This document shows, piece by piece, positions 25,689 to 53,284 of a stretch of 64,000 bases of DNA. Numbering within the stretch: the stretch's first letter is position 1; each line of letters opens with the position of its first letter. The DNA comes from Candidatus Fraserbacteria bacterium (GTDB lineage: Bacteria; Bipolaricaulota; Bipolaricaulia; RBG-16-55-9; JAJCYT01), in NCBI GenBank assembly GCA_029262795.1, contig JAJCYT010000018.1, forward strand, positions 195,762 through 259,761. The letters are read 5' to 3'. The notes beneath the pieces were generated by a model, which was not told the origin of the DNA, made no database searches, and was given only the letters and a program-made list of their open reading frames with translations. The position numbers were made by a program, and so were the translations under genes.

Positions 25689-25983
25689 GTGAGCCTCTTT
25701 AGGTCTGTAATTACTTACAGCAAAGTGTGAATACTACAAAAAGGCAATGAGCTAGATCATAAAGAACAGTTAAAAGTCCAAGAATTATTATGGAATGTAC
25801 CGACTATTGGTGAATTAGGAAGAGAGATTTCTGTAAATGTTTAGGTGGCTGGCCTGGCTGGACGATTTTAGAACTTATCTTGTAGAAAACCCAGATAAAA
25901 CTCATTCATTAAGTGAATGGTCTACATAATTAAGGTGTAGTCCATCAGAAGATATACAAAGGCATTCTTAGGAGAGAATAACA

Positions 25984-26595
25984 ATGAAAAGAAATAATGA
26001 CGCAAAATCGCGTAAAAATTCGCAATCTAGCAAAGCATCAAAAAGCACACCTAATCCACGGCCGAAAGAAGAAATCAAAAGAATTTTTATTGAGGGTGAA
26101 GATATAGATCAGATCCATATTCATCCTACTTTAACTGAGTTGGCCAAACGGTACAAAATTCCTGTGGGCACTGTGACAAAGTGGGCTTCTGAAGAAAAAT
26201 GGGCGGATCAAAAACATCGATTTCTAAGGGATTTGGAGGCCGCTCGTAAGCGAGGAATCCTCAATGCTGCTGAGGAAAAAAGCCGTGAGGTACTTGAGAA
26301 CTCGCATTCCATTATTTCTCAAGCGCAACGTGTCATTCTGGATTATTTCAAAGCATACGAACTTAAACGAGCAGCGTGTAAAAAGAAAGATAAGAATGCA
26401 TTTCCAGAAATTGACCCACTGGAGTTTCATCGTGTTATGAGTTCGGTCTTAAAGCTGACGCAAGCCACCGAAATTGCTTTACGCCCTCGAAACAACGTAC
26501 CTGAACAGAAAGGCATTGATATTGTAAAGCTTGTTCAATGGGGGCAGGAATATAAATCAGGCCAATCCGGTGGTTTCAATCCAAATGTGAGTTAA
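25984..26595 (+). CDS. hypothetical protein, basic Lys/Ser-rich N-terminus (possible DNA-binding/small-terminase-like)
   Basis: AGGAG RBS; no catalytic motif recognised. Confidence 0.4.
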   Translation: MKRNNDAKSRKNSQSSKASKSTPNPRPKEEIKRIFIEGEDIDQIHIHPTLTELAKRYKIPVGTVTKWASEEKWADQKHRFLRDLEAARKRGILNAAEEKSREVLENSHSIISQAQRVILDYFKAYELKRAACKKKDKNAFPEIDPLEFHRVMSSVLKLTQATEIALRPRNNVPEQKGIDIVKLVQWGQEYKSGQSGGFNPNVS

Positions 26596-26742
26596 AAACC
26601 TAAAAGTCTCCCCGGGGAGAGAAGATATTCATGTGGATTTACTACTTTTGAGCAAAAAGGAAACGTATAAATCAACCTATCTGTATTTATCGACCTCATA
26701 AAGCTTTGTTAGATAATAATGCTTTATGAGGTCGATGAAATT

Positions 26743-27165
26743 TCAACGACACAACTCAAATGTTCTTTGCATAATTAGTGTTGGGTCTTTGAATAATCCG
26801 TTACTGTCTGTGAGAGTAATATAATCTCTGGCTGCATTATACCCTGCCTGCATTGCAAGCCCATTTAGAGCGTAGGTGCCACGACCAGTTTCGATCACGA
26901 TAGCATCACCCTCCAAGCATTTAAGCGTTCCAGAATCAACCGTGAAAGGCCAGCTTGAGCCAAAGTCTGAACGATGGACCGCTAAAGTATTAGATGAGCC
27001 TCCCTGATTCAGGAAGAAATAGACAACAATAATGCAGACTATGATAATCCCCATAATCGTCACGTTTCGATCGTCGGGAAGATTCTTTTGGTTGTTATCT
27101 TCTTTCTGAGTAGATTCATTAGTGTTTTCAACTTCTTTGACCATGTTGCCTCCCTTATTAAACAT
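26743..27165 (-). CDS. hypothetical membrane-anchored protein
   Basis: Single TM IMGIIIVCIIVVYFF after an acidic/polar N-terminus. Confidence 0.4.
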   Translation of the reverse strand: MFNKGGNMVKEVENTNESTQKEDNNQKNLPDDRNVTIMGIIIVCIIVVYFFLNQGGSSNTLAVHRSDFGSSWPFTVDSGTLKCLEGDAIVIETGRGTYALNGLAMQAGYNAARDYITLTDSNGLFKDPTLIMQRTFELCR

Positions 27166-27220
27166 ATTATCACACTTATAGTGTGTAGACTTATAGTGTG
27201 CAAGTCATCATCTTTACAAT

Positions 27221-27451
27221 GTGCCTTTAATCGAATCAGACCGCCTATTTCTGACAAAGCTGGGAAAACGTATTCGGGAATTGAGAGAACAAAAGGGATT
27301 GTCCCAGGAAGCCTTTGGATTCCAGGCTGATTTACATCGAAATTATATTGGTGGAATCGAGCGTGGTGAGCGAAATGTAGCGGTCCTTAATCTCAAGAAG
27401 ATTGCTCAAGCCCTTAATGTTTCACTTGAAGAATTGTTTGAGAAAATATAA
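27221..27451 (+). CDS. XRE-family (Cro/cI-type) HTH transcriptional regulator
   Basis: LGKRIRELREQKGLSQEAFGFQADLHRNYIGGIERGERNVAVLNLKKIAQALNVSLEELF. Confidence 0.75.
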   Translation: MPLIESDRLFLTKLGKRIRELREQKGLSQEAFGFQADLHRNYIGGIERGERNVAVLNLKKIAQALNVSLEELFEKI

Positions 27452-27839
27452 CTATTCCAAGATTCAACATCCTACCAAATTGCTGTTCCACAAAATCTGC
27501 TCTCTAAGGCATCTCACAAATTTAAAAAGAGCCTTTGGCAACGGATAGTTTTTATAAAAAAGACCCAAAAGATATGGTTATACAAGAGAGAATAAAAGAG
27601 TTTCTATCATTAGGTTTTGACAAATTGTAGAATTTAGTGTATACCTGATTTGCTAGGAAACAACTTTGGGGAGTTGCTGTTGACTCTAAGGAAGATAGGG
27701 AGGAAGGGTTGGGGTTCATCATGGGGTAGTTAGCCGTTCGTTCTTAATAAATCTCTTCAAACTTTTTTTTATCACTCTATTTATCATTTTTGCTAGTAGT
27801 GACTTCATAACGCTTTCTCAAAATAACTGTCCACTATTC

Positions 27840-30800
27840 TTGAATCCAACCTTAACAATTGAGCCAACAACCGCACGTCAAGGAGAATTGTTCATTGAGC
27901 GGGGAACCGGATATTGTGCTAATACTGTTGCAACTATGTTTATCGGCATACCAAATAGTGCAACTGTCGAACAAAGAGAAATTCAAATTGACCAAAACGG
28001 CGAATTCTATATTCCTTTTGTTGTTCCCTTAAGTTATCCACTCGGGGCAGGCTGGATTGAAGTTGAAGATGTTGGAGGATTTATTAGTCCAAGGATCACA
28101 TTTACAGTCGAGCCAGTTCAAGATTCTCCCGATATTCCTGTGGTATCAAATTGCGATTTTCAGGCTCCCCCTTTGCTTGTATCTGAAGACAATGCTCCAT
28201 TGGGAAATAGAATTCCTTTGATGCTTGTTCACGGAATAACATCTGAGTGTGAACTTGGTGAACTTGAACTAAATAGAGAAGGTTGGAGAGCATTTGTCGA
28301 GTCTTTTTGGAATGAGAGCCTTGATACAAATTTCAAGCTATTTAGATTCAGATATGCAAGCTCCAAACAACACGTAAATCAATCTGCAAAACAATTGAAA
28401 GATGTTATCAATACTGATGCAGAATTATCCCAATCAAACAATATTGTTGTAGTTGCACATAGTATGGGAGGGCTTGTTACGTTAGATTACATGATCAATC
28501 AAGGTCAAGGTGACAAAATACAAAAGCTTATCTCTCTTGCTACCCCATATCAAGGAACCCCATTTGGATCCTTAGTAAAATATTTAAATGCACGCAAGAA
28601 AAGTGAAACACTAAATGACTTTGTAGATCTTTTCTGGCCAAATCTACAAGATATTCTTCAAGTTCTTAGCATTACTCCTCTTGAGCAATTAATTGAAAAT
28701 GCAAATGAGGATCTTAACAATCTTGCCTGGGGTTATGCAGGACTTTCCAATATCACTGATACCTCTTTAGATTCACTAAAATCAATCGGCAATGGAGTTT
28801 ATTCACAAAGGTATCCTATAAATATGGAATCTTATTTCAACAATGGTTATCTTGTTTCTCTTGCTAACAACCTATCAATAGACCATAAAATAAAGGCATA
28901 TTGCGGCAGTATTCCTCCTGATAATGGCTTCGACATATTAAATTCACCATCTCTAATTGATGCACTTGATATGGATCTTGTACAAGACTACTTAGCTGGT
29001 CTATTAAGCTTACTTCCTCAAGAATTTCAAAGCGATGGCATTGTTCCTAGAAGTAGTGCCGAATTTGATGGTCAGGATGTTGAAAGAAGGCTTGAGGGAT
29101 GCTTCCCAAACACTAATCATACAAATATGCCCAGTCATACCCTTGTCATTAATGCTGTATTAGAGGATCTTAGAAGAATTTGGGAGATTAACTCTGAGCC
29201 AATTCTAGTTGAAGTTGATCTTGATCTCGGTGATGGTCCCTTTGAAGTTGGGAAACTAATCAATGGATCTTTTACTATCAAGAATCAGCATACCCAGCCA
29301 ATTACCTTGAATTCCCTAACTGTTGGTGGTCGATATGATCAATTTGGACTCAATGAAATATGGGATTTTCCGCACCGAAAAAACCTGATATTGGATGCAG
29401 GAGCTACTTACACATATATAGATACATTTACTCCAACAAAGGCGGGCGAATATCATTTCTTTGTAGGCTATGAAATTGCTCCAAATCCTTGGAACACCAA
29501 TGTCCCAAACTTATCTGGTAATGTTGTAAATGCCGATATTGTAGTTTCTAATGATGTTGCCTTACCAAAGGCAGATTTAACTGTTGATTCAGTCTTTGCT
29601 CCAACTGTTGCAAAACATGGAGACTCTATTTCCGTATCCTGGAGAGCCAAGAATATAGGAACTACAAGTTCTTCATCTTTTAATAGCTTGATATCTTTAT
29701 CAATACCTCCATTTGGCACCACATATCCTCTTGGTACTTTTTCATCTAATTCCATAGGCGCAGGAGGAAACAGCAATGAGACGCAAACCATGCAGATTCC
29801 AAACAACATTCCTCCAGGCGATTATTACGTTACCGTGTTTGTGGACAGTTTGGATGCCGTTATGGAAGGGAATGAAAATAACAACATCAATAAGGCATCA
29901 AATAGAATTGCTATTATCTCCAACCAACCTGTAGCAGAACCATTTATTACGTTCCAGAAAACCCTTCGTCCATCATCTGATCCTCTGTGTAACGGTGAAA
30001 TTGCTTGTGGTCCTCAAATTGATTTAACAAGTTCTGACCCTACAGATGGATCAAGAGATGTGATCTTTCGACTAGAGGTGACCAATACAGGCGGTGCAGC
30101 AGCCACCTTTAGTTTGCTGGATCCACTTGGGAATGGCGATTTTGTTTGTGTGGAAGCAGCACAAAACCCAATGGCTGCTTGTAACATCAATAGCAATGAA
30201 TTGCGAATAGAAAGCCAAGTGGTTCAACCAAATTCGATCTGGTTTTATGATTTTCGAGCAAGATATGTGGGCAGCACTCAGGCAGATGGTGCAGTAATTC
30301 CGAATACAGCTGAAATCATTTGGATTGACAATTATTACGATGCAGCATTAGGCATTGACAATGGCCGACATGGGGCATTGTCCGATTTTGAAGATACGTT
30401 TTTGAGTAACCCTTCGGTCAATCATGTAGGTGGAATAACTTTTAGCAGCAATCCTTCTGGAAGAACACTCACTGTACAAGGCCAAACGGTTCAAACCCCT
30501 TACACGTTAGAGTGTAATCCTGGATCATTGGTTTCAGCCTCTACCAATCTTACTCAAACAGCACCCAGTCATGGCCGATATAGTTTCCGCAACTGGAGCA
30601 ATGGCAGTTTCCTTCAAAGTCTGTCAATAACATGCCCAAATGGAGGAACAACCATGACAGCTATTTATGATCTCCAGTATCAATTGATTACATCAGCCGC
30701 ACCCAATGGAACAGGCAATGTTTCTTTGAATCCTGCAATAGTTGGAAATTGGTACAATGTCGGCAGCTCAGCTCAGCTCACACCAAATCCTATCAACGGG

Positions 30801-33800
30801 CAAGAGTTCTCACATTGGAGCGATGATTGTTCAGGTACAATTCAAATTTTCACTATAACAATCACTAAGCGAATACTTTGCACAGCCAATTTCATTTTAA
30901 TGGAACCAGATTCACCATCATTGTCTGCGACTGCGATATTTACGCATCAAATCAACCTGAATTGGACAAGCATACCGGGAGCGAGTAGCTATACTATTGA
31001 ACGCAAAGATCCAGGCAGTGAGTATCTAGCCCTCTCTATGGTGAGTTCTACAAGCTATGTTGATAATTCACCTGGCCGCCCATTATTGACAAACGCTGAA
31101 TATTGCTACCGTGTTCGACCACAAGGATTTTCTCCACCAGCACCTTATTCCAATGAATACTGTCTTTATACAAGAGCTGCGACTCCAAATGCGCCTACAG
31201 TGTCCAGTCCATCTGCTATCACTTTATTTGTCACAGTCAATCCTGGGAACAACCCTACCAACACATGGTTTGCGTTGTTCAATGAAACAGCCAATTACTA
31301 TGTTTCCGGCGGTGGCGAAAACAATGGCATGAATCCGTATTGGCTTCCAGCAGCAAATTGGGGTACCACTCTGGTGCGTGCTCTGAACTCAAATACCACC
31401 TATCGATTCAAGGTGAAGGCTAGAAATGGCTCAGGCATTGAAACAGGATTTGGCCCAACAGGTTCAGGAACCACAGCCACAGGCATTACAAAACCAACCA
31501 ATATTGCTCCAGCTCACAATGCGACAGGTGTTTCATTCACCGCAACGCTCCAAGCATCAGTATTTAATGCACCACACACATTGACTCATTCGGCAACACG
31601 ATGGCAGATTCGCATAAACAGTGGAAGTTTCGATGAACCACTTTGGGACAGCCATGAATTCAATGAGAATTTGACGAGTCGAACAGTCCCTAGCCATATT
31701 TTGGAAGGTAACACAATTTATTGGTGGCGAGTCAGCTACCGTGCCTTTGATCAGAATAACACCAAAGTTTGGTCGCCTTGGTCAGATGAAACAAAGTTCA
31801 CCACTGTTGGAGCGCCTATTGGTGGAAATGTCAATCTTGCCAACACGCCATGTCCAACCTATCGCTGCAACTTAGAACGAAATGGTTTAAGCTCATATAT
31901 CGGCCCAGAAAATCCCACTCAGAAATGGAAAACCTCCATCAGGGGCGGCTTTGAAAGCCCTGTTATTGGGCTGAATGGTGAAATTTATTACACCTATGAC
32001 AATCGTCTAAGAAAAATTGATCAAGAAACTGGGAATGAAATTGCCAACTATTTGTCAGGTGATATCAGCGGAATTGCAGCTGCCACGCTTCGAGGCGATG
32101 GATTAATTTATGTATCTTCCCTTAATGAGCAACTAACTGGCACAACCAGTGCGGGGGATGTTGTCATTCAAACATCTTTAGTTGGACGACCTGACAACTC
32201 ATCACCTGCTATCGGAAGTGATGGAACTGTTTATGTTGTTACAAATCAGGGAACTTTGTATTTTATTACTCCATCTGGCGGAATTATTCGAACCAAGTCG
32301 CACAACCCAACATCAACTTCTCCCACATTGGGAACTGATGGAACCATCTATGTTCTTTCCCTTCGTGCATCAATCGAGAATGGAAAACTATATGCTTATA
32401 ATCCCAATGGTAGTCTGAAATGGGCATTTGATACAGGCGGAACAGCTCTTAATCAAAGCACACCCGCTGTTGGTCCTGATGGAACCATTCACTTTATAGG
32501 CCGAAAAGGCTTCGGTGATTATGGGATTTTTGCCGTTCGCTCTGATGGAACAGAGAAGTGGTTCAGACCATTGTCTGATTCTATAGGCACAGGGTCACCA
32601 GCAGTTGGGCCTGATGGCACGGTCTACTTTACAGCAGGTGACCTTAAGCTCTATGCACTGAACTCAGCAAATGGTAATACAATTTGGACTCATCCTTTGC
32701 CCTCATTCCCTTGGGGGGCACCTGCTATTGATGCGAATGGCACTATATATGCAACTGGTGGTGCTACTTTGCTTGCTGTGAATCCAAATGGAACTAAAAA
32801 GTGGGAGATCACACTTGACGGAAATATCTATGCATCACCTGTAATAGATCAAGATGGCACATTGTATATTGCAACGACTTCTGACTCGCTATATGCGTTT
32901 GAGAATTCAGGCAGCTCAGGTCAACAATTCACCCTGACTGTTGGCAACAATGGCAGTGGCACTGTGACCAGCAGTGATGGTTTCATCAATTGCGGTAGCA
33001 GTTGTCAAAAATCCTATGATAGTGGAACCACTGTTGTTTTGACACCAACGCCAAGCAGTGGATACACCTTCTCGCACTGGAGTGGAGATGCAGACTGTGA
33101 CGATAACCAAGTATCCATAACTGCCAATCGCACTTGTACCGCACATTTCACAATCAATTCTTACAATGTCACCGTGAATGTGGTTGGTTCAGGTAGTATT
33201 TCTTTCTCTCCTCCAGGTACAAATTGTGGCTCCAATTGCCGCACTTATGATGCAGGCACACAGGTTACTATTACAGCCAGTCCAAGTTCAGGTTATGAGT
33301 TTAGCAATTGGCCTCCAGTTGGGTGTGATTCAATCAATGGAAATCGCTGTACCACAACAGTGAATGGCAGTATCACGACTACGGCAACTTTTGTTCAGAT
33401 TTCTAACGCATCATCAAAAATCGTCTTTGACTCTCAAAGGGATGGGAATAGAGAAATTTATGCAATGAACTCAGATGGCACTAACCAAACTCGTTTAACC
33501 AGCAATAATGACTTTGATGGCGATCCTGTTTGGTCGCCAGATGGTTCGAAGATTGCTTTTATTTCGGATAGAGATGGAAATAGAGAAGTCTATGTGATGA
33601 ACGCCAATGGCACGAATCCAACTCGTCTCACGAACACTAGCGCCTTTGAGGGTAGCCCAGCATGGTCACCCGATGGAATCAAGATCGCATTCATTTCGGC
33701 AAGAGATGGGAACAATGAAGTCTATGTGATGAATGCCAATGGCTCTAACCAAACTCGATTCACTAGCAACAATGTTTTTGAGGGAGATCCAGACTGGTCA

Positions 33801-38441: not shown

Positions 38442-38675
38442 TATAGCCATTCGCCTAGCTTGAAACCATAGCCAACATTGGCATATTTAGATTTGGTCTA
38501 AATTTTTTCGCCCGCCCTAGGGCGATTATTAAATATGATTCTAGATCCATATTATTAGCATATACTTTTATTCTAAGATGGTTGAGTTAAATCGTAGCAT
38601 GGGATGTTATGATTGGAGTTCGTAATATTATTGGATAGTATTTACAGATCCTTACTCCAAAACAAAGGGTAAACA

Positions 38676-41918: not shown

Positions 41919-41922
41919 ACTC

Positions 41923-45483: not shown

Positions 45484-46946
45484 AAATCAAGACCATAGAA
45501 ATCAACAACTATAAGGCGTTTCTTGGCAAACATCCAATTAATGTAAATGAAAAAAACCTTTTTATTTATGGTGAAAATGGAAGTGGTAAAAGCTCCCTTT
45601 ATTTCGCATTAAAAGATTTTTTCCAGTCCTCAATGGAAGACATTGTTCTTGAGGACTTAGAAAACATATTTGTAGAAGAAAAGAATCAAGGCAAAACATC
45701 TATCGAAGTTTCATTTAAGCCCAATCCTCAAGGAGATCAAGAAGTAAAAGCCTATTTGCTTAATAATGAGCAAAATGCAACACGCGAGGAAACTGATACC
45801 AGCATCCGTGATGGGAACAAACTGAAAAGCTTTCTTACTTATAAACACCTATTAGATATTCACAACATAAAAAAGGATGAGTCAATAAATCTATTCAATT
45901 TATTGGTCAAGGGAGTATTAAAGCACTTTAAATTTTCTCTAACCAAAGGAAAAGAACTAGGTGAGTTATGGGCAGAAGTGGAGAGTAGTATTAGCCAAAA
46001 AACTGGCCGTAGTTATCCGATCAATAAAAAGAAACCAGACGTAGATGCTGCTATAAAGCTATTCAATGAAGCCTTTAAAGAATTGTTCAATGAAGAGAGC
46101 CCAGAGTATATACTTAAACATACAAAACCTATTTTAAACAAATTCAATCATAATATTGATTTAGTGCTATATTTTCCTCATGTACGGCCTAACTCAGATT
46201 ATACGAGTCTTCTTGATGTAGAAGTGAGTGTTGAACTCACTTATGCCGGTAAGAAGATTAAGAAACCACATTTATTTCTCAACGAAGCGAGGCTTTCAGC
46301 TATTGCAATTTCGATCTACCTTGGAATGATCAAACGCCACATTCAACTTATTCCATGCAAAATACTGTTTTTAGACGATATCTTTATCGGCCTTGATATT
46401 GCAAACCGTTTACCTTTATTAGAAATTTTGGAATCAGAGTTTCAGGATTATCAAATCTTTATTACCACTTATGATAAACCCTGGTTCGAATATGTACGCG
46501 GTATGCTTGAAGGCAAATCAAATTGGAAAACAATGGAATTCTATGCACAACATTGTCAAGAAGGCATAGAGATTCCCAAGATTTTTGATGGTGAAAATCT
46601 AATTAAAAAAGCTAATAAACATTTTCAACAGTCTGATTATAAGGCAGCCGCAGTCTATATTAGATCAGCATTTGAAAAGATACTACAGAAATACTGTGAA
46701 AAACACAGAATATCAATCGCATTTAAGTCTGACCCGAGAAATTATACTTCAGAAGATTTTTGGATAGCCATTAAAAGCAAATTGTCACCTCAGACTCAAA
46801 AAGAAATAGAAGCCTATCGTAATCTAGTACTAAACCCCTTTAGTCACTATAACACGAGGAAGCATGAAATAAAGACTGAATTAGAAAAAGCCATTAAAGC
46901 GGTCACGAATTTAAAAAAGAATCTGAATGATCTTGACTCGAAATAA
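45480..46946 (+). CDS. RecF/SMC-like (AAA_15/AAA_23-type) ATPase
   Basis: Walker A GENGSGKSS, Walker B/D-loop ILFLDDIFIGLD; ATGA overlap with upstream MTase gene. Confidence 0.7.
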   Translation: MKIKTIEINNYKAFLGKHPINVNEKNLFIYGENGSGKSSLYFALKDFFQSSMEDIVLEDLENIFVEEKNQGKTSIEVSFKPNPQGDQEVKAYLLNNEQNATREETDTSIRDGNKLKSFLTYKHLLDIHNIKKDESINLFNLLVKGVLKHFKFSLTKGKELGELWAEVESSISQKTGRSYPINKKKPDVDAAIKLFNEAFKELFNEESPEYILKHTKPILNKFNHNIDLVLYFPHVRPNSDYTSLLDVEVSVELTYAGKKIKKPHLFLNEARLSAIAISIYLGMIKRHIQLIPCKILFLDDIFIGLDIANRLPLLEILESEFQDYQIFITTYDKPWFEYVRGMLEGKSNWKTMEFYAQHCQEGIEIPKIFDGENLIKKANKHFQQSDYKAAAVYIRSAFEKILQKYCEKHRISIAFKSDPRNYTSEDFWIAIKSKLSPQTQKEIEAYRNLVLNPFSHYNTRKHEIKTELEKAIKAVTNLKKNLNDLDSK

Positions 46947-47000: not shown

Positions 47001-49112
47001 ATGGATAACCAACAACCAAAGCCTGATTCAAAGAGCTATTCGGATCTCATAACAGAAATACAAAAGGGCATATTAAAAATCCCAAAATTTCAACGTGATT
47101 TTGTATGGAGCATAGACAAAACAGCTGAACTTTTAGACAGCATTCTTAAAGGTTATCCAATTGGGACATTTATCCTATGGCAAACAGATGAAAGAATGAA
47201 TGACATCAAAAACATTGGAGATCAAAAAATCCCAGATACCCCCGAGGGGACTAAAGTTCAATATGTGCTGGATGGTCAGCAAAGAATTACTTCTCTGTAT
47301 GCAGCTTATCTTGGAGCAAAAATTCAAAAATCAGGCGAAAAGAAAATCACAGATTACAGTGAGATTTATATTGATCTGGAATCAGACATCAACAATGATG
47401 ATGAACATGTGATCACATCGGAAAAACCTCAAGGGCCATCGATTTCTTTAAGTGATGTATTAAATTTCTCAGAAAAGTATCAAGAAATCGAGGAAAAGCA
47501 CTTTGAACATCGAATGAAGATTAATGAGTATTCAAGGGCATTCATTACTTATGATTTTTCTACTATTTTATTACGAAAAGAAAGTATTAATTCTGCCATT
47601 GAAGTTTTTACCCGCATAAATACCGGAGGGCAAACTCTGACTTTGTTTGAAATTATGTCAGCCAAGACATATGACGAAGGTCAGAGTTTTGATATGCAGG
47701 AAAAATGGTCAGGGTTCATGAAAAAGCTGACTGATAAGAATTATGAGGGTATATCTAGTTCAATCATTCTTTCTTTACTTTCGTTGATCATAAGTAAAAC
47801 CAAGGAATGCAAGCGAAAAACAATTTTGAAACTTGATAAACAGGATATCATTTCAACTTGGGATGATGGTATCTCGGCATTAGAACACAGCATTGATTAT
47901 TTTCGAACCTCATTTGGAATTCCTGTTTCTCAGCTTTTGCCTTATGATTCTTTGCTAGTACCGTTCGCATATTTTTTCTACTGGACTAAGGATATGCCCA
48001 ATGCCGACCAGCGAAAATATTTAGAAGAATTTTTTTGGCGTGTTTCTCTCTCGTACAGATATTCTAGTGCCACTGAATCCAGCCTAGCACAGGATGTTAG
48101 ACGGATTGATTTGATCTTGAATAACGAACGTCCAAAATATGATGACATAAAAGTATCCTATGACGTCGAAGAGCTTATTAACACTGAGTTTGGTGCTGGA
48201 AACAGTTATTGTAAAGCTATTTTATGTTTACTGGCCTACCAAGAACCAAAAGATTTCCAAGATAACCGAAAAGTTATCTTGGATAATTCATGGCTGAAAG
48301 CCGCCAATAGTAAAAACTATCACCATTTCTTTCCAAAAGCTTATTTGAAAAAGCAAAAAGTAATTAATGCTAATAGCTTGATAAATATCACATTTGTCAG
48401 TGAACATCTCAACAAGCGAAAGATAAGAGCCAGCGCCCCTTCAGTGTATATTGCCAGGTTTGCTGAAGAAAATGAAAAAATCTCCCAAGCCATGGCCTCA
48501 CATTTGATCGACGTGGAAGGTTTTGGGATTGAAAGCGATGATTACGATATCTTCCTAAAGAAACGAGCCGAACGAATCTCAAATGAATTAAGAAGACGAT
48601 TAGAGCTTTCAAAGCCAGATAAACCAAGCTCTGAAATACATGAGCTTATTTCAAATGGTGAAAGTGACCATGTTGAATTCAAATCTACACTCCGCTTTGA
48701 CCTAAATAAAGGCCAAGTCAACAAAAAATTAGAATATGTGGTAGCCAAGACGGTAGCAGCATTTATGAATACAGAAGGAGGCTGTTTGCTAATTGGTGTT
48801 GATGATGATCAAACCATTTTAGGTTTGGATAATGATATCCAAACGCTTTCTAAGAAAAATCTAGATGGATTTGAACTTCAATTAATTGAGGTTATTAAAA
48901 AGTATATTGGAACTGAAGTCAGTTCACACATTAAGATCTCCTTTAATGAAGTCGAAGGCTCCCATATTTGCAAGATAAATATTTCGAAAAGTAGTACGCC
49001 TATCTTCACAAAATTTGAAGGTCAAGAAGATTTCTTTGTAAGAGTTGGATGTTCCTCACAACCACTCAGTCGAGAAAAACAAAGTCAATATGAAAAACAA
49101 CGATGGAGATAA
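47001..49112 (+). CDS. DUF262/DUF1524 (GmrSD-like type IV restriction-type nuclease) fused to C-terminal AlbA_2 (Schlafen-like) domain
   Basis: DUF262 motifs FQRDFVW and VLDGQQRITSL; DUF1524/HNH-like region HHFFPKAY...ITFVSEHLNKRK; C-terminal SDHVEFKST...FMNTEGGCLLIGVDDD. Confidence 0.75.
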   Translation: MDNQQPKPDSKSYSDLITEIQKGILKIPKFQRDFVWSIDKTAELLDSILKGYPIGTFILWQTDERMNDIKNIGDQKIPDTPEGTKVQYVLDGQQRITSLYAAYLGAKIQKSGEKKITDYSEIYIDLESDINNDDEHVITSEKPQGPSISLSDVLNFSEKYQEIEEKHFEHRMKINEYSRAFITYDFSTILLRKESINSAIEVFTRINTGGQTLTLFEIMSAKTYDEGQSFDMQEKWSGFMKKLTDKNYEGISSSIILSLLSLIISKTKECKRKTILKLDKQDIISTWDDGISALEHSIDYFRTSFGIPVSQLLPYDSLLVPFAYFFYWTKDMPNADQRKYLEEFFWRVSLSYRYSSATESSLAQDVRRIDLILNNERPKYDDIKVSYDVEELINTEFGAGNSYCKAILCLLAYQEPKDFQDNRKVILDNSWLKAANSKNYHHFFPKAYLKKQKVINANSLINITFVSEHLNKRKIRASAPSVYIARFAEENEKISQAMASHLIDVEGFGIESDDYDIFLKKRAERISNELRRRLELSKPDKPSSEIHELISNGESDHVEFKSTLRFDLNKGQVNKKLEYVVAKTVAAFMNTEGGCLLIGVDDDQTILGLDNDIQTLSKKNLDGFELQLIEVIKKYIGTEVSSHIKISFNEVEGSHICKINISKSSTPIFTKFEGQEDFFVRVGCSSQPLSREKQSQYEKQRWR

Positions 49113-49414: not shown

Positions 49415-50395
49415 ATGATGAGTTCCGTAGTTTTAGAGAGGAAAAATATGACAAGAAAATCTGATTCTAGTCCTACTAAGGAACTTATAACTTCATTAGA
49501 AGATCTTGTGGAAATTGGTACTGTACCTGCTTCAGCTTTACAAAAAGATATGGGTTTGACTTTTGATGATCTTGTGCAATTGGCAGTTGAAGCATCTGTG
49601 AATAGTGCTTCACTTGCGTTCCCCAAATTGAGTTTATTGGATATGCTTGCTCTTAGTTGTTTTTTTGAAATATGCGATCAAATTGAAGTTTCTCTCGAGA
49701 GACTAGAATCAGTTTTAAATTGGATGACTGGTAACAAACCTACTCATTTAGAAAAAATAATAGAAATGCAATCTATTTTTGAACTTCACTGTTCGGGGCT
49801 AAGCATACCTAAATCACCTGTAGAGGCATTGGAGCTATTACAAAAAGCGAATGATGAATTTGTCGGCAAAAGCCTCCTTAGAATAATTAGGGCTAGATGG
49901 CCAATCTTCTCTCTGCTTTTAAATCTCTCTTTAGGGCATAAAATGTTTTTCAAGTCCGATCTAAAAGAAGATCATCAGTTCTTAAGTGAATCTAACTTGG
50001 CAGAATTGGCCCAGTTTGGGATATTACTTGGTTCAGATAGGAAGTTAGAATATCTTCTTCCTCTAAACGAAATTATGAATGAAGTTTTAGAAGCTGTTGA
50101 GTTAAAAACATTTGAAATAACGAATAGTACAAGAAACTTTGATCCTTATACTCATTCAGTCAGCAAGATAGTGGCTGAGCAACTCTTAAAGAAAGATTAC
50201 GATTCGATTCTAATAGAATTTAATTCAGATAACGAAATTCGTTTGGTATTCAATAAAAATATAGATTTAAGTAAGTCTATAAAGCTTGGTAAGATAATTG
50301 ATGATATTGATTTTGGCCATTTAGACCTCTTTGTCAACCATGGCAAAATAACTCAAATAAGATCGAAAGAATCAATTAAATTCCAGCAACGCTGA
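49415..50395 (+). CDS. hypothetical protein (possible start at ATG 49448)
   Basis: Long ORF with island-typical AT-rich codon usage; no motif recognised. Confidence 0.4.
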   Translation: MMSSVVLERKNMTRKSDSSPTKELITSLEDLVEIGTVPASALQKDMGLTFDDLVQLAVEASVNSASLAFPKLSLLDMLALSCFFEICDQIEVSLERLESVLNWMTGNKPTHLEKIIEMQSIFELHCSGLSIPKSPVEALELLQKANDEFVGKSLLRIIRARWPIFSLLLNLSLGHKMFFKSDLKEDHQFLSESNLAELAQFGILLGSDRKLEYLLPLNEIMNEVLEAVELKTFEITNSTRNFDPYTHSVSKIVAEQLLKKDYDSILIEFNSDNEIRLVFNKNIDLSKSIKLGKIIDDIDFGHLDLFVNHGKITQIRSKESIKFQQR

Positions 50396-50494: not shown

Positions 50495-50677
50495 ATGGAT
50501 CCTCACGTAGATAAGTATTTGCTTGATTCCGCACAAAAGCTTTGGCAACCTGAATATCAAGATAAACTCAGTAATGAAGACGTAGAAGAAATTGTCGATA
50601 ATATTTCGGATTTTTTCGAAGTATTGATCGAATGGGGCAATACTTCCAACGAGCCTACAGAAAGTAGGCTCGAATGA
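50495..50677 (+). CDS. small acidic hypothetical protein (possible recombination directionality/accessory factor)
   Basis: 60 aa; ATGA stop/start overlap with downstream Rep-like gene. Confidence 0.25.
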   Translation: MDPHVDKYLLDSAQKLWQPEYQDKLSNEDVEEIVDNISDFFEVLIEWGNTSNEPTESRLE

Positions 50678-51783
50678 ATAAATCAACCAGTGTTAAAAAT
50701 AGTGGAACTAAAAGCCCTCTAGTTACACACCCCCCGCAAATTCCAAAAAATGTAACCAGCAAGACCTTATTAATGGGCTTAGATAGCTTGTATCTAGGCT
50801 GTTTTGGTCAACTGCATCGAAGATTTCAAAGGCTAAATGATTCAAAAATAAAAATTTCAGATGTTTTATTTACAGCCACAGATATTAGATTTGGGCCATA
50901 TAAGTATGTGTTTGATAGTGGTAGAATGACAATTGGATTCAATAATAAATACAAATATGCATCTTCACCTGAAGTCTATATTCGACTAAAATCTCAATTC
51001 ATTTTGTCAAAAGGTTTAGCGAATGCGTATGAAAGCGCAATAAAGATAGCCGATAAACTGTTAGTTTCACGAACTAAACGAGATACAGTGCTTCGCGTAG
51101 ATTTGTTTATGGATATTCTTTGGGATAAAGCGTTCAAAGCTGCTGATGTAGATAAATTTGTTTCTAGAGCAAGACAAAAGAACTCACATTCTTCTAATAA
51201 TGAAATAACTGGCTTCAGTTTTGGAAAATCTCAAATTAGAGCCAGAGTTTATAATAAAACCCTAGAAAAGAATAAAGAAAAATCACATTTACTTTATCAG
51301 GCTTGGAATATTCCAAAAAAATCTAAGTCAAATGTATGGAGATTAGAATTTCAATTACGAGGAGTGGCATTGCGCAAGTTTGATGTTCATGAGTTTTATG
51401 ACCTGATTTACGAAGCAAATAGAATTTGGAATTACTGCTGCCAAAAATGGCTTTCCATGAGGAAACTGAATAATAAAAGAACAACTCGTAGATCTCTCAC
51501 AGCTTTTTGGAAGACTGTTGTTGATTCAAACTTCGAATTTAATCTTGAGATCGAAGATGAAGAAAGATTTGAACAATTAACCAAGCAATATGCAGAAGGA
51601 AATTTGAATGAGGTTACAGATGATAGTCATATTGTTAATACTATTTCAGGCATGGTAAAGAACCATGCTATTTCACATGGCTATGCTACAAATGAGGAAG
51701 CGCTTGACAACTTGTTACCTAAAATAGAAAAGAAGTTAAGCATCATAAGAAAAAACAAAAAAAGAGGTGAATTAAAGCCATGA
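50674..51783 (+). CDS. Rep_trans-like rolling-circle replication initiator (putative)
   Basis: IRARVYNKTLE and WRLEFQLRG resemble the conserved vRiYdK / RiE motifs of Rep_trans initiators from ICE/IME and phage. Confidence 0.55.
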   Translation: MNKSTSVKNSGTKSPLVTHPPQIPKNVTSKTLLMGLDSLYLGCFGQLHRRFQRLNDSKIKISDVLFTATDIRFGPYKYVFDSGRMTIGFNNKYKYASSPEVYIRLKSQFILSKGLANAYESAIKIADKLLVSRTKRDTVLRVDLFMDILWDKAFKAADVDKFVSRARQKNSHSSNNEITGFSFGKSQIRARVYNKTLEKNKEKSHLLYQAWNIPKKSKSNVWRLEFQLRGVALRKFDVHEFYDLIYEANRIWNYCCQKWLSMRKLNNKRTTRRSLTAFWKTVVDSNFEFNLEIEDEERFEQLTKQYAEGNLNEVTDDSHIVNTISGMVKNHAISHGYATNEEALDNLLPKIEKKLSIIRKNKKRGELKP

Positions 51784-53243
51784 AAGTGCTTGCGTATGCA
51801 CGTGTTTCAACTCAAGATCAGGCTAAGGAAGGATACAGTGTTCCTGCTCAAATAAGAGCAATCAGAGAATCTGCGAAAAGAAATAACCTTCAAATTGTGC
51901 GTGAATTTACTGAGGCCGAATCTGCAAAAGCCGTTGGCCGAAAGAGCTTTCACAAAATGGTCAAATTTATCAAAGCAAATCCAGGAAATGTTGATGGGAT
52001 TATAGCACATAAGGTAGATCGTTTATCTAGGAATTTCAAAGACCTTCTAACACTCAAGGAACTAAATATGAAACTAATATTTGTGTTAGAAGAATTTCCC
52101 GACAATGCCATGGGCAGATTTATCCTTGATATGCGTGTTGCTCAATCAGCTTTTTATAGTGGCAATCTTTCAGAGGATGTAATTAAGGGAATGACTGAAA
52201 AGGCAAAACAAGGACTATTCCCTTCCCGTGCAGCACTAGGATACATCAATGTGACCAGAAACGGGAAAAGAATCATTGAACCTGATCCCGAAATTGCTCC
52301 GTTAATAAAGACTGCTTTCAAGTTATATTCAACTGGCAGATATTCACTTAATCAGATTAGGAAATTATGTGGGGAACAAGGCCTAGTTTATCGCCAAAGT
52401 AGAAAACCTATCAGCAAAAGCACTTTGGATAGTATGCTCAAAAGGCCTTTATATTATGGTGGTTTTTACTGGAGTGGAAATCTCTATCGTGGTACTCATG
52501 ATCCCATAATTTCCAAAACACTCTTTGATAAAGTTCAACAAGTGCGCAAAGATCGCTCAAAACCAAAAAGAAAGTCATGGCGTTTCGCTTTTTCAGGTCT
52601 TCTTGTGTGTGGTTATTGTGGATGTGCAATTACCGCAGAAATGAAGAAAGGCAAGTACACTTATTATCATTGCACTGGATATAAAGGTAAGTGTGATCAA
52701 AAATGGCTGAGAGAAGAAGTTTTGTCCGAAATTTTGGGGGAAATGCTTTTAGAAATACGCTTTGGTCAATCTAAGATTGATTGGATTGAAGATGTGTTGA
52801 TTTCCAAGCACTCTATTGATTTGCAGCAACAAGAAACTTCAATGCGAGCTTTAAAGTCACAAGCTAATAGAGTCCAAAATCGTTTAGAAAAGATATATAT
52901 CGATAAATTAGATGGCGTAGTTTCTGAAGAAACTTGGGTATCGAAATCAAAAGAATGGGAGAAAGAAGAACAAGAAATACTAACTCGCATTAAAGCAATG
53001 GAAAATATTGGCCCAAATTTTATAGACAAGGGTATCCAGATTTTAGAACTGGCGAATAACGCCTACAACTCGTATTTAAATCAGAATATTCATGAAAGGA
53101 GGAGATTACTTGATTGTGTACTTTCGAACTGCGAAATGTTAGGTGAAAAGCTAGTGCCAAACTACAAAAAACCATTTGACATCCTAGCAAAATCGAGAAG
53201 TTGTACGGATTGGCTGGGAGAGAGGGATTCGAACCCCCACTAA
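51780..53243 (+). CDS. large serine recombinase (integrase)
   Basis: N-terminal resolvase catalytic domain MKVLAYARVSTQDQ (Ser nucleophile), recombinase domain, Cys-rich zinc ribbon CGYCGC...YYHC and coiled-coil; last ~11 codons overlap tRNA-Gln. Confidence 0.85.
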   Translation: MKVLAYARVSTQDQAKEGYSVPAQIRAIRESAKRNNLQIVREFTEAESAKAVGRKSFHKMVKFIKANPGNVDGIIAHKVDRLSRNFKDLLTLKELNMKLIFVLEEFPDNAMGRFILDMRVAQSAFYSGNLSEDVIKGMTEKAKQGLFPSRAALGYINVTRNGKRIIEPDPEIAPLIKTAFKLYSTGRYSLNQIRKLCGEQGLVYRQSRKPISKSTLDSMLKRPLYYGGFYWSGNLYRGTHDPIISKTLFDKVQQVRKDRSKPKRKSWRFAFSGLLVCGYCGCAITAEMKKGKYTYYHCTGYKGKCDQKWLREEVLSEILGEMLLEIRFGQSKIDWIEDVLISKHSIDLQQQETSMRALKSQANRVQNRLEKIYIDKLDGVVSEETWVSKSKEWEKEEQEILTRIKAMENIGPNFIDKGIQILELANNAYNSYLNQNIHERRRLLDCVLSNCEMLGEKLVPNYKKPFDILAKSRSCTDWLGERDSNPH

Positions 53244-53284
53244 CCGGGTCAGAGCCGGTCGTCCTACCATTAGACGATCTCCCA
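53211..53284 (-). tRNA. tRNA-Gln (anticodon CTG)
   Basis: Reverse complement TGGGAGATCGTCTAATGGTAGGACGACCGGCTCTGACCCGGTTAGTGGGGGTTCGAATCCCTCTCTCCCAGCCA folds as cloverleaf: 7-bp acceptor, GTTCGAATC T-loop, anticodon loop CU-CUG-AC, encoded CCA. Confidence 0.85.

What the first reader, a model, noticed from the sequence alone, without database searches (positions are those of the whole stretch)
25690..53284. AT-rich ~27.5-kb integrative element at tRNA-Gln with serine recombinase ORF running into the tRNA
Composition shifts abruptly at ~25.7k and back at 53.28k. The element ends exactly at the 3' end of tRNA-Gln(CTG). The last ~11 codons of the large serine recombinase (..WLGERDSNPH) are encoded by the tRNA 3' sequence, consistent with attP overlapping the integrase gene. 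The left boundary is unclear, and the cysK-like gene 24726..25688 already looks AT-shifted. Serine recombinases need only a short core, so the absence of a long direct repeat is not surprising.
Basis: partly seen in the sequence, partly recalled or inferred. Interest (0 to 1): 0.6.

Follow-up and report, generated by a model that had tools for sequence, protein, structure and literature searches.

The report
Serine-integrase island inserted at tRNA-Gln end
A 27.4-kb mobile island carrying phage-defence-like genes and a giant secreted protein sits at the 3' tip of a tRNA-Gln gene, put there by a serine integrase whose attachment site lies inside its own gene; the integrase belongs to a large, apparently undescribed group that targets tRNA ends.

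Summary
tRNA-Gln(CTG) lies at 53211..53284 on the minus strand, so its 3' end is 53211 and 53284 is its 5' end. The 487-aa large serine recombinase (51780..53243) reads 33 nt into the tRNA. I place attL at 25846-25852, giving an element of 27,365 bp.

- **attL:** the core TGGCTGG is shared with attR (53211-53217). It is followed by GACGATTTTAGAACT, a motif found at the far end of six other integrated family members and once in this window.
- **T-loop copy:** this motif resembles the tRNA T-loop but sits 5 bp further out. That is the known attP/attB offset of the zinc-ribbon-domain motif in serine integrases.
- **Empty sites:** two related genomes (L143, L150) have the same tRNA-Gln neighbourhood without the element. 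Homology of L143 to the window stops at 53210.
- **Recent mobility:** in a third relative (L131) the integrase is 85-96% identical while host flanks are about 75-80%.
- **Family pattern:** 46 of 80 related loci have an opposite-strand tRNA overlapping the integrase end.

Cargo is defence-like but unclassified. Excision and the exact crossover are untested. I rate it a new variant of a known kind.

The parts
25846..25852 (+). attL identity core TGGCTGG, shared with attR. The crossover dinucleotide lies somewhere inside it.
   Evidence: It is identical to 53211-53217. It is the only upstream site in the window that combines a match of at least 7/8 to the attR core with the in-frame tail motif; controls gave 1 hit in 786 kb.
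25853..25929 (+). P' arm of attP and the rest of the excised-form integrase tail. In the integrase frame, 25846-25926 reads WLAWLDDFRTYLVENPDKTHSLSEWST, followed by the stop at 25927-25929. The conserved DNA motif GACGATTTTAGAACTTATC lies at 25861-25879.
   Evidence: The motif D-x-[FY]-R-[TN]-[FYL] occurs once in all six frames of the window. The degenerate pattern GACGATYTYMGAACTYWTC matches without mismatch only here; the window differs at one position from the GACGATYTYMGAACTYTTC consensus of the other loci. The same motif, at the same +15 spacing from TGG, is found at attL of L097, L057, L074, L096, L091 and L092.
25984..26595 (+). 203-aa protein with a helix-turn-helix that weakly resembles the small terminase subunit. 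Function unknown; possibly DNA binding, excision or packaging.
   Evidence: No Pfam or NCBIfam hit. Weak PHROG hits to small terminase subunit and DNA-binding families, E about 3e-4.
26743..27165 (-). 140-aa DUF2511/YebY-like small membrane-anchored protein
   Evidence: Pfam DUF2511 at 29.6 bits against a cut-off of 21; PHROG 2950.
27221..27451 (+). 76-aa XRE-type helix-turn-helix regulator
   Evidence: HTH_3/19/31 on the called gene; PHROG transcriptional regulator/repressor families down to 2.7e-13.
27840..38441 (+). 3533-aa multidomain surface or secreted protein, carried as cargo. It combines an alpha/beta-hydrolase domain, CARDB, PQQ and PD40 beta-propellers, two LamG domains and a weak type IX secretion C-terminal sorting domain.
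   Evidence: Pfam hits. It lies inside the attL-attR interval. GC is 0.43 and GC3 0.34.
38676..41918 (+). 1080-aa PLD(HKD)-SNF2 helicase, a defence-like cargo gene
   Evidence: Pfam PLDc_2, SNF2-rel_dom and Helicase_C. PADLOC 'HKD+Snf2' 1.5e-52 and DrmD-like. It is below the NCBIfam cut-offs for DrmD and for the PLD anti-phage protein.
41923..45483 (+). 1186-aa Eco57I-type N6-adenine methyltransferase, of the kind fused to a restriction enzyme in type IIG systems
   Evidence: Pfam Eco57I 7.9e-45 and TaqI_C. Full-length match to PADLOC REase_MTase_IIG PDLC03596 at 1036 bits. PglX models score far below their cut-offs.
45480..46946 (+). 488-aa SMC/AAA_15-type ATPase
   Evidence: Pfam SMC_N and AAA_15; weak PADLOC hits to mad3 and AriA.
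47001..49112 (+). 703-aa protein with a GmrSD_N (DUF262) domain and an AlbA_2 domain
   Evidence: Pfam 2.7e-31 and 3.6e-19; PADLOC PDC-M55C 5e-64.
49415..50395 (+). 326-aa protein of unknown function
   Evidence: No hit above a curated cut-off or in the other libraries; the only Pfam match is a marginal DUF2292 hit (21.3 bits against a cut-off of 22).
50495..50677 (+). 60-aa acidic protein that recurs with this integrase family. It is a candidate accessory or directionality factor; this role is inferred.
   Evidence: tblastn finds homologs in 18 related loci, 16 of them on the integrase strand and about half within 135-660 nt upstream of the integrase. No family hit.
50674..51783 (+). 369-aa protein weakly resembling Rep_trans replication initiators, overlapping the integrase start
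   Evidence: Pfam Rep_trans at 20.4 bits, below the 29.6 cut-off. PHROG 33635 'endonuclease' 4.8e-12. It is not conserved in related loci.
51780..53243 (+). Large serine recombinase (integrase), 487 aa in the integrated state. The catalytic Ser10 is present. The last 10 codons are read from the tRNA.
   Evidence: Pfam Resolvase 89 bits, Recombinase 56.8 bits, Zn_ribbon_recom 47.6 bits. PHROG integrase 4e-78. The 63 invariant columns of the family alignment, including R8 and S10, are all present.
53211..53217 (+). attR identity core TGGCTGG, the complement of the last 7 nt (CCAGCCA) of the tRNA
   Evidence: It is identical to 25846-25852. Homology with the empty-site relative L143 ends at 53210.
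53211..53284 (-). tRNA-Gln(CTG), the host target. Its 3' part forms the B' half-site; the T-loop TTCGAAC lies at +17..+23 from the CCA end.
   Evidence: ARAGORN and Rfam at 63.8 bits. The sequence is identical in the empty-site relative L143.

Best explanation
Positions 25846-53217 are one 27.4-kb integrative element that a large serine recombinase inserted at the 3' tip of the host tRNA-Gln(CTG) gene.

Proposed mechanism:
- The element's attachment site (attP) lies inside the last codons of the integrase gene. The P arm is the codons just before Trp478. The shared core is TGGCTGG, the complement of the tRNA's terminal CCAGCCA. The P' arm is the other end of the element.
- The host site (attB) is made of the tRNA acceptor 3' strand and T-arm (B') plus the DNA just downstream of the tRNA (B).
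- The P' arm carries a copy of the T-loop sequence, (A/C)GAAC, placed 5 bp further from the core than the real T-loop in B'. This is the geometry by which the zinc-ribbon domain of serine integrases tells attP from attB.
- Recombination within the 7-bp core leaves the tRNA unchanged. The integrase gene then reads into the antisense tRNA (tail LGERDSNPH) instead of into its own P' arm (tail LAWLDDFRTYLVENPDKTHSLSEWST; 504 aa in the excised form).

Cargo is a four-gene defence-like cluster, a giant surface protein and small regulators. There are no virion or conjugation genes, so transfer between cells would need a helper.

Shown here: both junctions, the family pattern, empty sites in relatives, and an element more conserved than its host flank.

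Inferred: the catalytic act, the exact 2-bp crossover, current ability to excise, and the role of the cargo.
For: - tRNA and integrase overlap.
- Compositional island.
- Empty tRNA-Gln sites with conserved NUDIX/DUF420/GGT synteny in L143 (GGT 89% identical in protein; homology stops at 53210) and in L150.
- In L131 the integrase is 85-96% identical while the host flank is about 75-80%.
- Family survey: 46 of 80 metagenome loci have an opposite-strand tRNA overlapping the integrase end, covering Asn, Gln, Arg, Asp, His, Ile, Ser, Trp and Glu (Ala and Leu appear only among the viral-contig loci). One viral-contig locus (L107) targets a tmRNA and eleven more metagenome loci carry 3' fragments of a tRNA (one possibly tmRNA-like).
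- Of the 120 best homologs, 62 end in peptides derived from a tRNA, and most of 28 more stop within a few codons of the conserved Trp.
- Both ends were identified in L097, L057, L074, L096, L091 and L092, with 9-12-bp cores and the P' motif GACGATYTYMGAACT at +15. The same features occur in the window at 25846; controls gave 1 hit in 786 kb. The motif is unique in the window.
- The 5-bp outward shift of (M)GAAC in P' (+24..+28) relative to CGAAC in B' (+19..+23) matches the shift of the zinc-ribbon-domain motif described for LI/A118 integrase (PMC3783163).
Against: - No excised circle or attP junction of this element was seen, so activity is unproven.
- The host sequence left of attL (the B arm) shows no convincing mirror symmetry with the tRNA half-site: 6/22 at best.
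- No relative carries the same left flank, so the left boundary rests on the att motif, the family precedent and composition rather than on an empty-site alignment.
- Composition inside the element is uneven (0.43 against 0.35), so it is a mosaic.
- The AT-shifted cysK-like gene just outside attL is unexplained.
- The position of the central dinucleotide could not be fixed by symmetry analysis.
Confidence: 0.85

Rival explanations
1. Only the AT-richest part (about 38.45-53.2 kb: defence genes, Rep-like gene, integrase) is the integrase-borne element. On this view 25.7-38.4 kb, with the small genes and the giant ORF, is host DNA or an older, unrelated island.
For: There is a GC step at 38.4 kb, from 0.43 to 0.35. 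A 6-nt match ATTGGC at 38476 resembles the attR junction (sequence read). Giant surface-protein genes are often host genes with unusual composition.
Against: The 38.44-38.68 kb spacer has no P' motif and no in-frame tail. Joining at 38476 would give the tail WHI followed by a stop, without the family motif. The full core, correct spacing and motif occur at 25846, as in six other elements. GC3 of p203, the HTH gene and the giant ORF (0.34-0.35) is element-like, not host-like. Palindrome scoring gave the 38.4-kb site no advantage over chance.
Confidence: 0.06
2. The element is a dead remnant, fixed in this lineage. The integrase ORF is intact only by chance and no longer recombines.
For: No attP or circle form was found. 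A related lineage (L146) carries a decayed copy: a 186-nt integrase fragment plus an IS240 transposase gene next to the same tRNA. The hairpin present in other family members has degenerated here.
Against: The integrase ORF is full length with all family-invariant residues. Both att cores and the P' motif are intact. The element is more conserved than the host between the window and L131, which argues for recent transfer or selection.
Confidence: 0.2
3. The element is a phage satellite or prophage-related island. After excision it would be packaged by a helper phage, using the 203-aa protein that weakly resembles a small terminase subunit and the Rep-like gene.
For: Weak PHROG hits of p203 to small terminase subunits, E about 3e-4. 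A Rep_trans-like or endonuclease gene next to the integrase. Thirty-one relatives of the integrase lie on contigs classed as viral. Prochlorococcus tRNA-site cargo elements, a few with large serine recombinases, include satellite-like forms (bioRxiv 10.1101/2020.12.28.424599).
Against: There are no capsid, portal, tail or lysis genes in 27 kb. The terminase-like hits cover only a helix-turn-helix and are near the noise level. Sister elements of 3.3-4.2 kb carry only cargo and the integrase. This rival concerns the route of transfer and is compatible with the integration mechanism above.
Confidence: 0.12
4. The crossover lies deep in the tRNA, at the anticodon loop or T-loop as for tyrosine integrases. 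The element would then carry a long 3' tRNA segment and leave a displaced fragment at its far end.
For: Several related loci show the integrase followed by only the 3' 40-49 nt of a tRNA ending at the anticodon loop (L066, L078, L049, L091, L092, L024-26, L058), or by 24 nt ending in the T-loop (L075).
Against: No displaced tRNA fragment exists in the window or upstream of about 39 integrated relatives. L091 and L092 still have the short-core attL 3.3 kb upstream, so their tRNA was cut later by another insertion. The DNA beyond the fragment differs between sister loci. In L143, homology to the window ends at the CCA end.
Confidence: 0.03

Closest known systems
Phage-type large serine integrases (A118/LI, TP901-1, Bxb1, phiC31, SPbeta SprA)
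   Same: They share the three-domain build: resolvase catalytic domain with a nucleophilic serine, recombinase domain, and zinc ribbon with an inserted coiled coil. The att sites are short with only a few bp of identity. The distal DNA motif lies 5 bp further out in attP than in attB (PMC3783163).
   Different: Sequence similarity to solved members is remote: A118 integrase E = 3e-6 over 127 residues, TP901-1 catalytic domain 1.4e-8. The target is the 3' tip of tRNA and tmRNA genes rather than protein-coding or intergenic sites. attP is embedded in the integrase's own last codons, so the protein's tail changes on integration.
Tyrosine-integrase genomic islands in tRNA/tmRNA genes (P4-like islands, the class mapped by Islander)
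   Same: They use tRNA/tmRNA genes as landing sites, place the integrase gene next to the tRNA and leave the tRNA functional. They often carry defence or adaptive cargo.
   Different: The enzyme family is unrelated. In those islands attP holds a tRNA segment long enough to leave a detectable displaced fragment, with crossover in the anticodon or T loop. Here only 7-12 bp are shared and no fragment is left. [quoted passage not shown]
SCCmec cassette chromosome recombinases CcrA/CcrB
   Same: They are large serine recombinases that insert a cargo island at the 3' end of a conserved housekeeping gene (rlmH/orfX) without inactivating it (from my own knowledge). CcrB is the best NCBIfam match.
   Different: The score of 112 bits is far below the CcrB cut-off of 900. 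Here there is a single recombinase, a tRNA target, and attP inside the recombinase gene.
Integration-dependent immunity of mycobacteriophages (attP inside the repressor gene)
   Different: That system uses a tyrosine integrase, and the truncation removes a degradation tag with a proven regulatory effect. Here the gene affected is the integrase itself. Conservation at synonymous positions indicates a DNA motif rather than a functional peptide.
Tycheposons and other tRNA-site cargo elements of Prochlorococcus
   Same: They are cargo-carrying integrative elements at tRNA genes. Of 937 elements, 27 carry a large serine recombinase instead of a tyrosine recombinase.
   Different: The passages I searched in that preprint gave no att-site anatomy for the serine-recombinase members. 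Homology to this family was not tested.

Membership tests
Large serine recombinase (serine integrase) | N-terminal resolvase catalytic domain with the nucleophilic serine and conserved Arg residues | tested here: met
   Pfam Resolvase at 89 bits against a cut-off of 23.3, residues 4-145. R8, S10, Q14, D80, R81 and R84 are invariant across 32 homologs and present in the window protein.
Large serine recombinase (serine integrase) | Recombinase domain followed by a zinc-ribbon domain (four Cys) | tested here: met
   Pfam Recombinase at 56.8 bits (cut-off 21.1) and Zn_ribbon_recom at 47.6 bits (cut-off 25.3). C277, C280, C298 and C305 are invariant.
Large serine recombinase (serine integrase) | Coiled-coil motif inserted in the zinc-ribbon domain | not tested
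   Residues of about 340-410 look heptad-rich by eye. No coiled-coil or structure prediction was run.
Large serine recombinase (serine integrase) | Short attP and attB whose distal (zinc-ribbon-domain) motif is 5 bp closer to the centre in attB | tested here: met
   CGAAC lies at +19..+23 in the tRNA half-site. (A/C)GAAC lies at +24..+28 in the P' arm of the window and of six other elements. The reference geometry is in PMC3783163. This is sequence-level evidence only.
Large serine recombinase (serine integrase) | Recombination at a 2-bp central dinucleotide via a serine-DNA intermediate | not testable with these tools
   The crossover can only be bounded to the 7-bp identity TGGCTGG. Symmetry analysis was inconclusive.
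Site-specific integrative element (genomic island) | Two hybrid junctions (attL, attR) flanking foreign DNA that includes the integrase gene | tested here: met
   attL at 25846-25879 and attR at 53186-53235, with GC 0.386 inside against 0.505 and 0.469 outside.
Site-specific integrative element (genomic island) | Unoccupied target site in related genomes | tested here: met
   L143 and L150 have tRNA-Gln next to NUDIX/DUF420/GGT with no element. Their far flanks differ from the window's, so only the right junction is confirmed in this way.
Site-specific integrative element (genomic island) | Excision to a circle that regenerates attP and attB | not testable with these tools
   No read-level search was available, and no attP-form contig of this element was found.
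DISARM defence system | DrmA, DrmB and DrmC core genes with a methyltransferase; DrmD in class 1 | tested here: not met
   The helicase scores 164 bits against the DrmD cut-off of 610. No DrmA (DUF1998-associated helicase) or DrmB gene lies in the cluster.
BREX defence system | PglX methyltransferase together with PglZ, BrxC and BrxL or related genes | tested here: not met
   PglX models score 72-83 bits against cut-offs of 400-900. No PglZ or BrxC was detected.
Type IIG restriction-modification enzyme | Single polypeptide with an N-terminal nuclease, an Eco57I-type methyltransferase and a TaqI_C-type specificity domain | tested here: inconclusive
   Full-length match to PADLOC REase_MTase_IIG at 1036 bits, with Eco57I and TaqI_C domains. 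A nuclease motif in residues 1-500 was not examined.

The most novel reading that the evidence does not exclude
Because attP lies inside the integrase gene, the cell would make two different integrases. The free circle would encode a 504-aa protein with its own tail. The integrated copy encodes a 487-aa protein with a tail read from antisense tRNA, and its 3' end faces transcription from the tRNA promoter. On this reading the swap of tail and 3' context acts as a built-in switch that couples integrase activity, stability or direction (integration against excision) to the element's state, partly replacing a separate directionality factor.
Probability: 0.1. Interest if true: 0.8.

Novelty: new variant of a known kind. 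Interest (0 to 1): 0.6.

Why it matters
Serine integrases are the main tools for inserting large DNA into genomes, but each needs its own rare landing site. tRNA genes were long regarded as the preserve of tyrosine integrases.

This window shows a serine-integrase clade that uses the 3' tip of tRNA and tmRNA genes. At least eleven tRNA types are targeted across the loci surveyed. 2,760 of the 8,000 database candidates scored matched the integrase at E <= 1e-20; how many of those share the tRNA-end habit was not examined.

The anatomy suggests how this works:
- The near-universal T-loop sequence serves as the distal recognition motif.
- The variable acceptor stem gives specificity.
- attP imitates the T-loop with the 5-bp offset that marks attP identity.

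That model is testable and could explain easy retargeting between tRNAs. Because tRNA T-loops are near-universal, such enzymes might find usable sites in many organisms; this is speculation and was not tested.

For annotation, it explains many integrase ORFs with odd '...WLPGQDSNLQPSG' ends. It also provides a rule (core plus the GACGATYTYMGAACT motif) for finding the far boundary of such islands, which repeat-based island finders would miss.

For this genome, it delimits a 27-kb block of horizontally acquired defence and surface genes.

Tried and rejected
1. Search for a displaced tRNA fragment or long direct repeat: none found.

2. Ungapped palindrome scoring of every possible P/P' pairing across the window. 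The top scores of 17/28 were indistinguishable from chance. Candidates at 27769, 27628 and 38476 were dropped once the family motif was known.

3. Genome-contig scan with the GGT protein returned only relatives of 43% identity or less.

4. Homolog search with the cysK-like protein found no relative above 65%, so it gave no left-flank comparison. tblastx of the L143 far flank against the window found nothing. L149 and L151 lack the tRNA-Gln context.

5. Scan of viral contigs with the 19-nt P' motif returned 11 matches, none in a locus with an integrase homolog, so they add no evidence.

6. Reading the conserved tail W-x4-D-D-F-R-T-F as a functional peptide. I rejected this in favour of a DNA motif, for three reasons: synonymous positions are fixed (GAC GAT), amino-acid-changing first positions vary (F/L/I), and tails stop at arbitrary places.

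7. A hairpin plus T-run on the tRNA strand inside the integrase 3' coding region, as a replacement terminator for the tRNA. It is clear in one subclade (9-11 of 11 pairs with compensatory changes). In this window it is degenerate: 6/11 pairs, folding z = -0.75, and no terminator called.

8. Fixing the central dinucleotide by symmetry of attB and attP in seven loci: no consistent centre emerged.

9. Filing the cargo under DISARM, BREX or MADS: all scores are below curated cut-offs.

10. Literature search found no description of this family. The nearest statements are the Islander remark and the 27 serine-recombinase elements in Prochlorococcus. One key paper (TIGER 2020) was not available.

Full report
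**1. Checking the observation**

The GC profile shows a low-GC block: 0.505 for 1-25845, 0.386 for 25846-53217 and 0.469 for 53218-64000. The block is uneven. The small left-end genes are about 0.41, the giant ORF 0.43, and 38.6-53.2 kb is 0.33-0.38.

ARAGORN and Rfam find a single tRNA, tRNA-Gln(CTG), at 53211..53284 on the minus strand with an encoded CCA. Its 3' end is therefore 53211.

ORF 51780..53243 encodes a 487-aa protein that passes the Pfam cut-offs for Resolvase, Recombinase and Zn_ribbon_recom. Its last 10 codons plus the stop (WLGERDSNPH*) are the reverse complement of the last 33 nt of the tRNA. No other copy of the tRNA 3' end exists in the window.

**2. The overlap is a family trait**

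Homologs of the integrase share 40-48% identity over the full length; 2,760 of the 8,000 candidates scored had E <= 1e-20.

Their C-termini are distinctive. Of the best 120, 62 end in peptides such as WLPGQDSNLQPSG or WLGDRDSNPG, which are translations of antisense tRNA 3' ends (W = TGG = complement of CCA; DSN = T-loop). Most of 28 others stop within a few codons of that Trp.

I fetched 80 metagenome loci and 31 viral-contig loci using an alignment of the family. In 46 of the 80 metagenome loci a tRNA overlaps the end of the integrase ORF. It is always on the opposite strand with its 3' end facing the integrase. The junction is nearly always exactly at TGG.

The targets in those 46 loci are Asn, Gln, Arg, Asp, His, Ile, Ser, Trp and Glu; Ala and Leu appear in two viral-contig loci (L125, L116). 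One viral-contig locus (L107) abuts a tmRNA gene. Eleven more metagenome loci carry only a 3' tRNA fragment (one of them, L033, looks tmRNA-like by eye). L056 has a tRNA-derived tail but its contig ends inside the tRNA.

**3. Where the other end is**

About 13-20 of the 120 homologs lack a tRNA-derived tail. These continue after the Trp with a conserved W-x4-D-x-F-R-T/N-F motif.

In locus L097 both ends of an integrated element are visible:
- attR reads ...gaggaa|TGGCGCGCCCTGGGGGATTCGAAC (tRNA-Arg).
- 4.2 kb upstream, attL reads ...acgaaa|TGGCGCGCCCAAGGGGACGATTTCCGAACTTTT. In the integrase frame this encodes WRAQGDDFRTF.

So attP sits inside the integrase gene. The two junctions share a 12-nt core, which includes the last 10 nt of the tRNA. 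The 'non-tRNA' tail is encoded by the far end of the element.

I then scanned the DNA upstream of each integrated integrase for a match of at least 7/8 to its own attR core followed by that in-frame motif. The scan found one site in each of L097 (4.2 kb), L057 (10.7 kb), L074 (4.0 kb), L096 (3.45 kb), L091 and L092 (3.3 kb each), and the window (25846; 27,365 bp). Control sequence gave 1 hit in 786 kb.

The window site reads tttagg|TGGCTGGCCTGGCTGGACGATTTTAGAACTTATC. It translates as WLAWLDDFRTYLVENPDKTHSLSEWST followed by a stop. The peptide motif occurs once in all six frames of the window. The degenerate DNA pattern GACGATYTYMGAACTYWTC, which was written to accommodate the window's own sequence, matches without mismatch only at 25861-25879. 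Against the consensus of the other loci alone (…ACTYTTC) the window has one mismatch.

**4. Independent support from relatives**

L131 comes from another sample. It carries the same integrase 3' part at the same tRNA-Gln. The integrase segment is 85-96% identical to the window, while the host flank beyond the tRNA is about 75-80%. The element is thus younger, or more mobile, than the host divergence.

A GGT homolog search led to L143, a 3.2-Mb contig whose GGT is 89% identical in protein. L143 has the same GGT/DUF420/NUDIX/tRNA-Gln order and an identical tRNA, but no integrase. Its homology to the window (76-80% nucleotide identity over 10.8 kb) ends at 53210, one base beyond the CCA.

L150 (GGT 66%) is a second empty site. 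Its tRNA-Gln is followed 33 nt later by moaA.

L146 is a decayed copy. A 186-nt integrase fragment (88.7% identical) and the 7 nt TACGGAT remain next to the tRNA, beside an IS240 transposase gene.

The DNA on the 3' side of the tRNA differs in every relative. The empty sites therefore confirm the right junction but not the left one.

**5. Mechanism**

The P' arms of the seven elements are conserved as DNA: GACGAT-Y-T-Y-M-GAACT, starting at +15 from the T of TGG. The synonymous positions are fixed (GAC GAT), while first codon positions vary (TTT, CTT, ATT). The conserved 'DDFRT' peptide is therefore a by-product of a DNA motif.

In the tRNA half-site, the T-loop CGAAC lies at +19..+23. In P', (A/C)GAAC lies at +24..+28, a 5-bp outward shift. 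Rutherford et al. showed for LI/A118 integrase that the zinc-ribbon-domain motif sits 5 bp closer to the centre in attB than in attP, and that this offset distinguishes the two sites (PMC3783163).

I therefore infer three things:
- The zinc-ribbon domain of this family reads the T-loop sequence.
- The acceptor-stem bases next to the core give tRNA specificity.
- attP carries a shifted T-loop mimic.

The junction identity is 7 bp in the window (TGGCTGG) and 9-12 bp elsewhere. The common interval is +0..+6, meaning the last 7 nt of the mature tRNA, so integration leaves the tRNA unchanged.

The exact dinucleotide is unresolved:
- The universally conserved TGG and the need for a non-palindromic centre favour TG or GG of the CCA complement.
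- Geometry by analogy with LI integrase favours +5/+6.

After integration the integrase tail changes from 26 residues encoded by the element to 9 residues encoded by the tRNA (504 aa to 487 aa). I found no evidence that this matters for function.

**6. Content of the element**

Reading left to right:
- p203, with a weak helix-turn-helix resembling the small terminase subunit.
- A YebY-like protein.
- An XRE-type regulator.
- A 3533-aa surface protein with hydrolase, CARDB, propeller and LamG domains and a weak type IX secretion sorting tail.
- A PLD-SNF2 helicase.
- A type-IIG-like Eco57I methyltransferase.
- An SMC-like ATPase.
- A protein with GmrSD_N and AlbA_2 domains.
- p326, of unknown function.
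- p60.
- A protein weakly resembling Rep_trans.
- The integrase.

The helicase/methylase cluster looks like a defence system, but it fails the curated cut-offs for DISARM, BREX and MADS.

No virion or conjugation genes are present. Sister elements of 3.3-4.2 kb carry just one cargo gene plus the integrase. These elements are best described as integrase-borne cargo cassettes whose transfer between cells depends on something else.

**7. Alternatives considered**

- A shorter element (38.5-53.2 kb) is not supported, because there is no att motif at that position.
- A crossover deep in the tRNA is excluded by the lack of displaced fragments. In addition, L091 and L092 keep the short-core attL even though their tRNA was later cut at the anticodon loop, presumably by another insertion.
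- Whether the window copy can still move is open.

**8. Comparison with the literature**

[quoted passage not shown] A Prochlorococcus study lists 27 of 937 tRNA-site elements with a large serine recombinase, and the passages I searched gave no att anatomy for them.

Eight successful searches of the held library found no description of a serine-integrase clade with attP inside its own gene and a T-loop-mimicking P' arm. One relevant paper (TIGER 2020) could not be read, so prior description cannot be excluded.

**Verdict**

This is a real, well-delimited integrative element. I rate it a new variant of a known kind, with interest 0.6.

Noticed in passing
window 24726-25688 (minus strand): The cysK-like gene just outside attL is AT-shifted: GC 0.436 and GC3 0.377, against GC3 0.46-0.65 for neighbouring host genes. 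Its best homologs are only 65% identical or less and come from diverse phyla. No second att motif lies to its left. It may be a remnant of an older insertion at this hot spot.
   Followed up: partly
window 50495-50677 (+); homologs in L079, L038, L044, L047, L084, L085, L100 and others: A 60-aa acidic protein recurs with this integrase family in 18 of the fetched loci, on the integrase strand in 16 and often only 135-370 nt upstream of it. It matches no known family. It is a candidate recombination directionality or accessory factor.
   Followed up: partly
Integrase 3' coding region of related loci (e.g. L104, L050, L048, L051, L073, L036); window 53168-53196: In one subclade the codons for KPFDxxA(K/E)G form an 11-bp-arm palindrome (AGCCCTTCGAC-N6-GTCGAAGGGCT) with compensatory changes such as TTCAGC/GCTGAA and TTCTGC/GCAGAA. 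An A-run precedes it. On the tRNA strand this reads as a hairpin plus T-run just downstream of the tRNA, so it may be a terminator supplied by the element. In the window it is degenerate: 6/11 pairs and folding z = -0.75.
   Followed up: partly
L066, L078, L049, L091, L092, L024, L025, L026, L058 (40-49 nt); L075 (24 nt): In these loci the integrase is followed by only the 3' part of a tRNA, which breaks off at the anticodon loop or T-loop. L091 and L092 still have a normal attL. The tRNA therefore seems to have been split later by a different insertion at the classic tyrosine-integrase positions. L066 has several IS transposase genes downstream.
   Followed up: partly
L146 2777-3720: A related lineage keeps only a 186-nt integrase fragment (88.7% identical to window 52274-52459) and the 7 nt TACGGAT next to the same tRNA-Gln, beside an IS240-family transposase gene. 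This is a decayed copy of the element.
   Followed up: yes
L107 11442-11820: One family member on a viral contig abuts a tmRNA gene rather than a tRNA. L033 ends in a sequence that looks like a tmRNA 3' end by eye; ARAGORN called no gene there.
   Followed up: partly
L143 12747-21548; L150 6626-14843; window 1-25845: The 5' side of tRNA-Gln (NUDIX, DUF420, GGT) is syntenic in all relatives. The 3' side is different in each genome: a beta-helix protein in L143, moaA and RNase HII in L150, and the cysK-like gene in the window. There is no similarity between these flanks even at protein level. The tRNA 3' side is a synteny breakpoint.
   Followed up: yes
L143 12747-12770 (read on the complement, as aligned to the window): The natural empty site in L143 is a fair inverted repeat. 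GGGTTCG at -18..-12 mirrors CGAACCC at +19..+25, and CTCT mirrors AGAG, about position +3.5 from the CCA end. The window's own left flank shows no such symmetry (6/22).
   Followed up: partly
window 27840-38441: The 3533-aa cargo protein has weak, below-cut-off matches to type IX secretion C-terminal sorting domains (CHU_C, Por_Secre_tail). Its GC is higher than the rest of the element (0.43 against 0.35), which suggests mosaic origin. No N-terminal signal peptide was evident at the called TTG start.
   Followed up: no
window 24049-24480 and the host flank to the left of it (locus L018): A 143-aa host protein has a weak MamS_MamX hit and lies near multi-haem cytochrome-like genes. The closest named GGT homologs (53-67% identical) are labelled Candidatus Bipolaricaulota, Bipolaricaulia and Myxococcota. 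The host is otherwise unidentified and has no close representative in the genome collection scanned.
   Followed up: no
window 26686-26739: A 26-nt-arm inverted repeat (88% complementary) lies between the convergent p203 and YebY-like genes. It looks like a bidirectional terminator.
   Followed up: no
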